Source of the DNA: Candidatus Krumholzibacteriia bacterium | Lineage (GTDB): Bacteria > Krumholzibacteriota > Krumholzibacteriia > LZORAL124-64-63 | Direction of reading: 5' to 3' | NCBI GenBank assembly: GCA_030590265.1 | Contig: JAUUYW010000001.1 | Location: forward strand, 1 to 30,620 | Length of the DNA: 30,620 bases | Part shown: positions 24,376-26,368 of the stretch, piece after piece | Position numbering within the stretch: position 1 is the stretch's first letter | Layout of the letters: the number at the start of each line of letters is the position of its first letter | The notes under the pieces: generated by a model | Told to the model about the DNA's origin: nothing | The model's database searches: none | Seen by the model: only the letters and a program-made list of their open reading frames with translations | Made by a program: the position numbers and the translations under genes

Positions 24376-24954
24376 ATGACCAACTCCGAAAACTCTTCCC
24401 GGAAGCGGACCCTGGACCAACTTATGGGCTCAACTTACGATAAAATCATCAATTACGCCCCGGAAAAGCCTGATCGATGGTTGTTGGTGGACACCAGTGA
24501 GCAACGTCTCTTTCTGGTCCGGGAAGGTGGCATTGCTGGCCAGTGGCCCGTCTCCACTGCCCTGGCGGGTCTGGACAACCGGGAGAATTCGGGAGGCACC
24601 CCAACGGGGGTGCACCGAGTGGCCCAAAAAATTGGCCGGAATTCCCTGTTGGGGACAGTCTTTATCAGCCGCGAGCCCACTGGCGAAACCTGGAATCAGG
24701 AATGGAACAATAATTCGGATCTGCGCCAGCGGGATCTAATCCTGAGTCGTATCTTGGTCCTCGACGGCCTTGAGCCCGGGGTCAACCAAGGTCAGGGAGT
24801 CGACAGCCGCCAGCGCTACATTTATGTGCACGGCACCAATCAGGAAGACCTCATTGGCAAGCCGGTTAGCCACGGCTGTGTGCGCATGAACAACCAGAAC
24901 ATCATCGAACTTTTTGATTTGATTGAAGAAGGAGATCCTCTTGTCATCGTTTGA
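24376..24954 (+). CDS. YkuD/L,D-transpeptidase-family protein without signal peptide (ElsL-like L,D-carboxypeptidase candidate)
   Basis: TPTGVHRV, ILSRILVLDGLE.G.N.G..VDS..RYIYVHGT, SHGCVRM; no signal peptide or TM. Start uncertain (24340/24376/24424). Confidence 0.85.
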   Translation: MTNSENSSRKRTLDQLMGSTYDKIINYAPEKPDRWLLVDTSEQRLFLVREGGIAGQWPVSTALAGLDNRENSGGTPTGVHRVAQKIGRNSLLGTVFISREPTGETWNQEWNNNSDLRQRDLILSRILVLDGLEPGVNQGQGVDSRQRYIYVHGTNQEDLIGKPVSHGCVRMNNQNIIELFDLIEEGDPLVIV

Positions 24955-26368
24955 TCCCAGCACCAAATCCAGCGAACAAACCTGGCTGCACTTTGCCGGA
25001 GTGGCCGGCAGCGGCATGAGCGCCCTGGCCCAATTCCACGCTTTCGGCGGCGGTTTAGCCACGGGGAGCGACCGCAGTTTTGACGACGGCGAACGCCAGG
25101 ATATCCGAAAAAAACTGGAAGGATTGGGCATCATCATCGTTCCCCAGGATGGCAGCTTCATCAGCGCCGGCGGCAGCCAGCGGCAGTGCGACGCCATGGT
25201 GGTCAGCACCGCCGTGGAAGAACGGGTTCCCGATGTGCGCGCTGCCCGCGAGAACCAGGTAGCCATGATGCACCGCAGTGAATTGTTGGCTCATTACGTC
25301 GCCACCCACAAGACCATCGCCATCACCGGCACCAGCGGCAAAAGCACTGTCACGGCCATGGTTTATTGCATCCTGCGCGGCTGCCGGCGCAACCCCGCCC
25401 TGCTCACCGGCGGCGCCGTCAGCGAGTTGATGGCCGAAGGTCACATTGGCAATGCCTTCTCTCCCTGTCCTGCAGAGGGCCCAGGCAACACCCTTTTGGT
25501 CATCGAAGCGGACGAGAGTGACGGCAGTGTTGTGCGCTACCATCCTTGGTGCGGGGTGGTGCTCAATCTGGGACTGGACCACAAAGAACCAGCTGAAATC
25601 ATGGACATGTTCCGCACTTTCAAATCCAATACCAAAGACCATTATATTGTGGGCGATCAAGGAGTTTTGGAAGAGCTGACAGACGCCGCTGTGGTGTTTG
25701 GATTGGAATCGGAAAAGGCCCACATCCAGGCAGCCAATATCAATCTGCTTCCTGCCGAGTCAACCTTCAGCATCGACGGTGTGGGGTTCCAGCTCAATGT
25801 TCCCGGTCGCTACAATGTTGCCAACGCCACCGCGGCCATCACGGCCTGTCTTCAGGCTGGAGTTGGTTTGGCTGAGATGGTCGCACCATTGGCTGAGTTT
25901 CAGGGCGTCCAGCGGCGATTTCAACTGATTGGCCAGGAAGGCGGTGTGGAAGTCATCGACGACTTTGCCCACAACCCGGACAAAATCGAAGCCACTCTGG
26001 CCACCGCCGCATTGCGCACAAAAGGCCGTGTATTGGCCATGTTCCAACCCCATGGATTTGGCCCCACACGTTTTTTAAAGGCAGCTCTGATAAAGACATT
26101 CAGCAATTCCTTGCGACCTCAGGATATTCTTTGGATGCCGGAGATTTTTTTCGCGGGAGGTTCAGTGAACCGGGATATTTCTGCTGGAGATCTGATCACA
26201 GCCATTGCAGATTCTGACCGGGATGCCCGATTTGAACCAGAACGTTTCGACATTGCCCGCCGGATGGCTGACGAGGCACAGCCAGGGGATCTCATCCTGG
26301 TGATGGGTGCGCGGGATCCGTCCTTGACGGACTTTTGCAGGGAGATTCTGGATCAATTGGGAAAGTGA
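24923..26368 (+). CDS. MurC/Mpl-like UDP-MurNAc ligase (divergent paralog)
   Basis: GVAGSGMSALA, GTSGKSTVT, EADESDGS, LGLDH, DDFAHNP, FQPHGFGP; located outside a dcw cluster. TTG start uncertain. Confidence 0.85.
   Translation: MKKEILLSSFDPSTKSSEQTWLHFAGVAGSGMSALAQFHAFGGGLATGSDRSFDDGERQDIRKKLEGLGIIIVPQDGSFISAGGSQRQCDAMVVSTAVEERVPDVRAARENQVAMMHRSELLAHYVATHKTIAITGTSGKSTVTAMVYCILRGCRRNPALLTGGAVSELMAEGHIGNAFSPCPAEGPGNTLLVIEADESDGSVVRYHPWCGVVLNLGLDHKEPAEIMDMFRTFKSNTKDHYIVGDQGVLEELTDAAVVFGLESEKAHIQAANINLLPAESTFSIDGVGFQLNVPGRYNVANATAAITACLQAGVGLAEMVAPLAEFQGVQRRFQLIGQEGGVEVIDDFAHNPDKIEATLATAALRTKGRVLAMFQPHGFGPTRFLKAALIKTFSNSLRPQDILWMPEIFFAGGSVNRDISAGDLITAIADSDRDARFEPERFDIARRMADEAQPGDLILVMGARDPSLTDFCREILDQLGK

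What the first reader, a model, noticed from the sequence alone, without database searches (positions are those of the whole stretch)
24376..26368. Putative peptidoglycan-recycling pair: cytoplasmic ElsL-like YkuD protein overlapping a MurC paralog that lacks the L-Ala carboxylate arginines
Seen: a signal-less YkuD protein overlaps a MurC-like gene outside the dcw cluster. Its C-terminal motif is FQPHGFGP rather than MurC FQPHRYxR, and it is not the Mpl-type FEPRS. Established, from memory: Acinetobacter ElsL is a cytoplasmic YkuD-fold L,D-carboxypeptidase used in recycling, Mpl ligates the recycled tripeptide to UDP-MurNAc, and the two Arg of FQPHRYxR bind the free L-Ala carboxylate in H. influenzae MurC. 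Inference: losing them fits a peptide substrate, making this a MurC-derived, non-orthologous Mpl fed by the adjacent carboxypeptidase.
Basis: partly seen in the sequence, partly recalled or inferred. Interest (0 to 1): 0.64.

Follow-up and report, generated by a model that had tools for sequence, protein, structure and literature searches.

The report
Probable third cell-wall peptide recycling ligase
This gene pair probably lets bacteria that lack the known recycling enzyme Mpl trim old cell-wall peptides and join them back onto fresh wall precursor, using a widespread relative of MurC for which I found no description and which databases label as ordinary MurC.

Summary
Observation confirmed. 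A signal-less ElsL-like YkuD gene (24376-24954) overlaps a Mur ligase gene (24941-26368) by 14 nt; canonical murC lies in this genome's dcw cluster. The ligase belongs to a widespread third clade beside MurC and Mpl (motifs HNPxK, QPHGxxP, GARD). It keeps MurC/Mpl's nucleotide sites, lacks both amino-acid-site arginines, as Mpl does, and gains invariant K348 and R458. It is fused or adjacent to two unrelated L,D-carboxypeptidases: ElsL-type in this family, LdcA/S66 in 55 of 80 distant loci. It never shared a genome with Mpl in my searches; two congeners lack it at the otherwise intact locus, keep the YkuD gene and carry true mpl (probably one event). Best reading (0.72): a non-orthologous Mpl analogue that ligates recycled tripeptide to UDP-MurNAc. 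No activity was tested, and the peptide importer is unidentified. 'MurC-derived' is not shown: the best tree puts it outside MurC+Mpl. I found no paper on it; earlier first readers of this scan noted similar ligases beside LdcA on other DNA. It can be tested in Brevundimonas subvibrioides.

The parts
24376..24954 (+). ElsL-like YkuD protein, 192 aa, probable cytoplasmic L,D-carboxypeptidase; the only YkuD found in the genome
   Evidence: fused in frame to the ligase in relatives
24829..24879 (+). YkuD catalytic motif H152...S-H-G-C168
   Evidence: sequence; His and Cys kept in all orthologues scored
24929..24954 (+). Shine-Dalgarno AAGGAG, TTG start of the ligase at 24941 and 14-nt overlap with the YkuD stop (probable translational coupling)
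24941..26368 (+). Mur ligase of a third MurC/Mpl-level clade, 475 aa; probable UDP-MurNAc:peptide ligase
24998..25021 (+). Gly-rich UDP-binding loop G20-S27, MurC-like
25328..25345 (+). P-loop GTSGKS (G130-S135), ATP site
25958..25984 (+). DDFAHNPDK motif; family-invariant N345 and K348 (MurC H and E, Mpl H and A)
26042..26065 (+). FQPHGFGP; G372 and P375 replace E. coli MurC R383 and R386
26303..26317 (+). MGARD; invariant R458 at the position of MurC GAG and Mpl SNG, candidate peptide-carboxylate binder (inference)

Best explanation
The pair is the peptide arm of cell-wall recycling. Stem tetrapeptides released from old peptidoglycan enter the cytoplasm (importer not identified; inferred). 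The YkuD enzyme removes the terminal D-Ala with its catalytic Cys, as ElsL does (inferred from homology and fusion). [quoted passage not shown] Shown: fold, retained nucleotide-site residues, rewritten amino-acid site, gene links and distribution. Inferred: substrate and reaction. It would do Mpl's job without being Mpl.
For: (1) Links to two unrelated L,D-carboxypeptidases: YkuD-ligase fusions P0122, P0152, P0165 and in genomes G013, G016, G022; ligase-LdcA fusion P0192; S66 LdcA in 55 of 80 GTDB loci, next to the ligase, including B. subvibrioides. In 251 Alphaproteobacteria, S66 is in 28 of 30 family-bearing genomes (22 adjacent) against 34 of 221 others. (2) No co-occurrence with Mpl: own family 63 of 72 carry the ligase, 2 carry Mpl, and both of those lack the ligase; at their syntenic locus the YkuD gene remains and the ligase is cleanly absent. 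Verrucomicrobiota 86 vs 78 genomes with no overlap; 0 of 50 further family-bearing genomes have Mpl. (3) A canonical murC is present. (4) The UDP loop, D44, R112, P-loop, E189, E192 (the MurC/Mpl Glu that replaces the carbamyl-Lys), H214, N295, R326 and D341 are kept, and the AF2 model matches H. influenzae MurC at Z 43.7, rmsd 2.3 A over 438 residues. (5) Mpl also lacks both arginines (S362, M365), while the second is invariant in the 22 MurC aligned. (6) Mpl ligating untrimmed tetrapeptide is harmful (PMC8649774, PMC8630537), which would explain tight coupling of a peptide ligase to a carboxypeptidase. (7) Oligopeptide/YejF-like ABC ATPases lie upstream in several loci.
Against: No assay. 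AmpG, AmpD-type amidase and AnmK were not found in this 81%-complete genome; G002, which has true Mpl, also gave no AmpG or AnmK hit but has an Amidase_2. Exclusion from Mpl is mostly by lineage: the Verrucomicrobiota split follows the draw order and so probably class, Mpl was absent from the whole alphaproteobacterial sample, and G002 and G005 are each other's closest among five relatives compared, so probably one event. 24 of 80 loci and 48 of 50 Verrucomicrobiota loci (flanks of only 1.5-2.5 kb) show no adjacent carboxypeptidase. None of Mpl's own peptide-site motifs is present.
Confidence: 0.72

Rival explanations
1. A second single-amino-acid MurC (L-Ala, Gly or Ser), redundant or conditional; the link to carboxypeptidases is only co-regulation of wall genes.
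For: Closer in sequence and fold to MurC than to Mpl; H344 and H371 of the amino-acid site are kept; new R458 and K348 could bind a free carboxylate in place of the lost arginines; databases name it MurC. Four relatives gave no second MurC hit at E 1e-30, probably a threshold effect but not checked.
Against: A canonical murC is in the dcw cluster here and a second, MurC-range hit was seen in most relatives; a second MurC has no reason to fuse with two different carboxypeptidases or to be absent where mpl is present.
Confidence: 0.1
2. A recycling ligase with another peptide preference than Mpl, for example the dipeptide L-Ala-D-Glu or a Lys/Orn-type or amidated stem.
For: The peptide site is built from residues unlike Mpl's (N345, K348, GG406-407, R458, D459); many members have no adjacent carboxypeptidase.
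Against: Its partners make tripeptide, and true Mpl appears able to stand in for it beside the same YkuD gene.
Confidence: 0.11
3. A ligase outside peptidoglycan metabolism, or a pair in which the YkuD protein is an exported transpeptidase.
For: Some sources name members 'cyanophycin synthetase'; some neighbourhoods are unrelated to the wall.
Against: The MurC-type UDP domain is intact and CphA/MurT models score under 32 bits; the YkuD protein has no signal and is fused to an ATP-dependent ligase in relatives.
Confidence: 0.07

Closest known systems
Mpl, murein peptide ligase (TIGR01081; PDB 3hn7; PMC3060825)
   Same: Three-domain Mur ligase with the MurC-type nucleotide sites; both amino-acid-site arginines lost; works with an L,D-carboxypeptidase; appears to replace this family in two congeners.
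   Different: 105 of 389 bits; lacks SGP, AFFDKRSK, EPRS and SNG; a family+Mpl clade is rejected (AU p=0.003); often adjacent or fused to the carboxypeptidase.
MurC (TIGR01082; PDB 1p3d)
   Same: Closest fold (Z 43.7); GxxGxGMS, EADESD, H214, H344, QPH kept.
   Different: 266 of 335 bits; R383 to G, R386 to P, H355 to N, E358 to K, G466 to R (E. coli numbers); outside the dcw cluster, in addition to a canonical murC; separate clade.
ElsL of Acinetobacter baumannii (NF040925; PMC8649774, PMC8630537)
   Same: Stand-alone YkuD domain, 192 aa, no signal or wall-binding domain, catalytic His and Cys.
   Different: 164 of 270 bits; here coupled or fused to a ligase; activity not tested.

Membership tests
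MurC | TIGR01082 above 335.1 bits | tested here: not met
   266.2 bits
MurC | Amino-acid-site arginines (H. influenzae R377, R380) | tested here: not met
   G372 and P375, each about 97% in the family; mapped through E. coli MurC
MurC | UDP, ATP and Mg sites with Glu in place of carbamyl-Lys | tested here: met
MurC | Falls inside the MurC clade | tested here: not met
   Family is its own clade 95/91; MurC+Mpl 98/96. A sister position to MurC is not clearly rejected, p=0.055
MurC | Ligates L-Ala to UDP-MurNAc | not testable with these tools
   needs an assay
Mpl | TIGR01081 above 388.7 bits | tested here: not met
   104.8 bits
Mpl | Mpl-specific motifs SGP, AFFDKRSK, EPRS, SNG (PMC3060825) | tested here: not met
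Mpl | One clade with Mpl | tested here: not met
   AU p=0.0032, 31 rows, LG+G4
Mpl | Ligates tripeptide to UDP-MurNAc | not testable with these tools
   inferred from context only
ElsL-type L,D-carboxypeptidase | YkuD domain of 105-200 aa, no signal, membrane helix or wall-binding domain (criteria of PMC8649774) | tested here: met
   192 aa, Pfam YkuD only, hydropathy scan rather than SignalP
ElsL-type L,D-carboxypeptidase | Catalytic Cys motif | tested here: met
   H152 and C168
ElsL-type L,D-carboxypeptidase | NF040925 above 270 bits | tested here: not met
   164 bits, E 2e-48; next model 31 bits
ElsL-type L,D-carboxypeptidase | Cleaves tetrapeptide to tripeptide | not testable with these tools
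   needs an assay

The most novel reading that the evidence does not exclude
A second, independently evolved murein-peptide ligase family, branching outside MurC+Mpl, closes the peptide-recycling loop in hundreds of species now counted as lacking Mpl (Alphaproteobacteria, Verrucomicrobiota, Planctomycetota, Krumholzibacteriota, Latescibacterota, some Bacteroidota). It uses a different peptide-binding site (K348, R458) and is sometimes fused to its carboxypeptidase.
Probability: 0.65. Interest if true: 0.75.

Novelty: new variant of a known kind. Interest (0 to 1): 0.62.

Why it matters
Recent papers conclude that bacteria without Mpl degrade recycled stem peptides instead of reusing them (PMC13046382, PMC9790009, PMC11980594). 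That may hold for C. crescentus and Agrobacterium, which also lack LdcA; I did not search those two for this family. This family offers a concrete candidate for the missing step in many other lineages, including cultured Brevundimonas, and is hidden under MurC annotations. It would correct pathway reconstructions and give a second structural solution to peptide ligation on the Mur scaffold.

Tried and rejected
Only murC in the genome: rejected. Divergent Mpl orthologue: rejected by motifs and tree test. Exported transpeptidase: unlikely. Literature: searches of eight term sets found no description of this family; Frankia MurC2 appears from its abstract to be another case; the Mur-chimera paper does not mention these fusions; the H. 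influenzae MurC structure paper could not be fetched; subscription papers are not covered. The AU test on the 76-row mixture-model tree did not finish and was rerun on 31 rows. The sample meant for Bdellovibrionota turned out to overlap the alphaproteobacterial handles, so it is Pseudomonadota; its 5 family genomes left no room for an Mpl-range hit. Sigma-70 promoter scan was at chance level. No RNA holder was listed. The first AF2 job folded P0143, not the window protein. No complex prediction was run, as binding is not claimed.

Full report
Observation. The window holds a 192-aa YkuD ORF (24376-24954) and, overlapping its last 14 nt, a 475-aa Mur ligase ORF starting at TTG 24941 after an AAGGAG site. 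The pair is transcribed away from a phosphotransacylase/butyrate kinase operon and converges on a response-regulator operon. The YkuD protein's best model is ElsL (164 bits, cut-off 270, next model 31); the ligase is under the cut-offs of both MurC and Mpl. The genome is 81% complete; its closest named homologues come from Ca. Krumholzibacteria. It has a canonical murC in a dcw fragment, no Mpl hit, no S66 LdcA hit and only this one YkuD.

The ligase is one of a large family. The 150 best representatives at 50% identity nearly all share SDR45, E93, HN345PxK348, QPHG372xxP375, GG406-407 and GAR458D. Members occur in Alphaproteobacteria, Brocadiae, Latescibacterota, Elusimicrobiota, Gemmatimonadota, Verrucomicrobiota and Bacteroidota, and in cultured Brevundimonas species, where they are annotated as MurC. 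The family profile separates them from MurC (at least 402 bits against at most 376) and from Mpl (at most 243).

Phylogeny. With 38 family, 22 MurC and 11 Mpl sequences and five other Mur ligases as outgroup, the family is one clade (95/91) and MurC+Mpl another (98/96). On a reduced set the data reject family+Mpl (p=0.003) and do not clearly reject family+MurC (p=0.055). The outgroup branches are long, so the root is soft. The family is not an Mpl orthologue and did not fall inside the MurC sampled; 'MurC-derived' is unproven.

Active site. The AF2 model (pLDDT 96) matches H. influenzae MurC best (Z 43.7, rmsd 2.3 A, 438 residues; Mpl 3hn7 Z 29.8, rmsd 4.7 A). Residues that Das et al. (PMC3060825) assign to UDP, ATP and Mg binding are kept, including the Glu that MurC and Mpl have in place of the carbamyl-Lys of MurD-F, so the acceptor is probably UDP-MurNAc. 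Of the five MurC residues believed to bind the incoming amino acid, both His and the aromatic remain and both Arg are lost; Mpl has lost the same two. New invariant K348 and R458 lie in the motifs that hold Mpl's proposed peptide-binding residues. That they bind peptide carboxylates is inference.

Genomic context is the strongest evidence. In this bacterial family the YkuD gene precedes the ligase in 21 of 23 loci and is fused to it in three genomes and three further database proteins, some of which may be the same lineage. Elsewhere the partner is the unrelated serine L,D-carboxypeptidase LdcA: present in 55 of 80 loci, downstream in an operon or divergent, fused in P0192, and 43 nt away in B. 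subvibrioides. Among 251 Alphaproteobacteria, 28 of 30 family genomes have S66 against 34 of 221 others; kin are not independent, so the nominal p overstates. Two unrelated enzyme families whose known reaction is tetrapeptide to tripeptide accompany the same ligase. Fusion to an ATP-dependent ligase also argues that the YkuD domain is cytoplasmic.

Exclusion by Mpl. Of 72 genomes in the family, 63 have the ligase and 2 have Mpl; those 2 lack the ligase. Their locus is otherwise syntenic, keeps the YkuD gene and runs straight into the next operon; their mpl reads FEPRSAT elsewhere. They are each other's closest among the relatives compared, so this is probably one replacement. In 241 Verrucomicrobiota, 86 have the family, 78 have Mpl or an Mpl-range hit and none both (28 expected at random), but the split follows the draw order and so probably class. 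None of 50 more family genomes has Mpl. The pattern fits non-orthologous displacement but rests on few independent contrasts.

Gaps. AmpG, Amidase_2 and AnmK were not found in this genome. Of five near-complete relatives, three have an AmpG-like permease, three have Amidase_2 and none has AnmK. Amidase_3 enzymes are present and an oligopeptide-type ABC ATPase lies on contig C230, so import of free peptides is possible; YejF/Opp-type ATPases flank the ligase in several distant loci, and YejBEF imports muropeptides in Agrobacterium (PMC9790009). Many members have no adjacent carboxypeptidase; whether one lies elsewhere in those genomes was not tested.

Verdict. A real, conserved pair. The YkuD protein works most likely like ElsL. 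The ligase most likely works like Mpl (0.72) but is not a member of Mpl or MurC by the tests run. I found no description of the family in the paper library, while recent work states that species lacking Mpl probably degrade their stem peptides. Other first readers of this scan noted similar ligases beside LdcA on other DNA; those notes are unchecked and not counted as evidence, and the LdcA link was found here before reading them. New variant of a known kind; interest 0.62.

Noticed in passing
window 21967-24189 (-), stop at 22807-22809: A phosphotransacylase-butyrate kinase fusion gene is split by an in-frame TGA; five relatives have a Gly codon there. A nonsense change or an assembly error in this genome.
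   Followed up: partly
L099:2089-2970: S66 LdcA next to the ligase has Cys in place of the catalytic Ser (GFCDNA); my pattern matched only half of the S66 sequences, so the count is incomplete.
   Followed up: partly
L076:3542-5122; L060, L071, L123-L125 upstream: YejF-like or oligopeptide ABC ATPases lie just upstream of the ligase in unrelated lineages.
   Followed up: partly
L032:1443-3167: A soluble lytic transglycosylase is divergent from the ligase-LdcA fusion P0192.
   Followed up: no
L130:347-1498 and seven similar loci: Bactofilin genes lie directly upstream of the ligase in a group of Verrucomicrobiota.
   Followed up: no
L001 (G000:C380) 2-5961: The dcw fragment appears to run murD-ftsW-murC-ftsQ-ftsA without murG, murB or ddl; murG lies near mraY on C282 and ddl on C421.
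   Followed up: partly
G018, L119: One relative keeps the ligase but has other DNA where the YkuD gene lies and no ElsL hit in the genome; in G023 the two genes are 6 kb apart.
   Followed up: no
G000:C458:1558-3057: A further, very divergent Mur-ligase-fold protein of about 500 aa; not identified.
   Followed up: no
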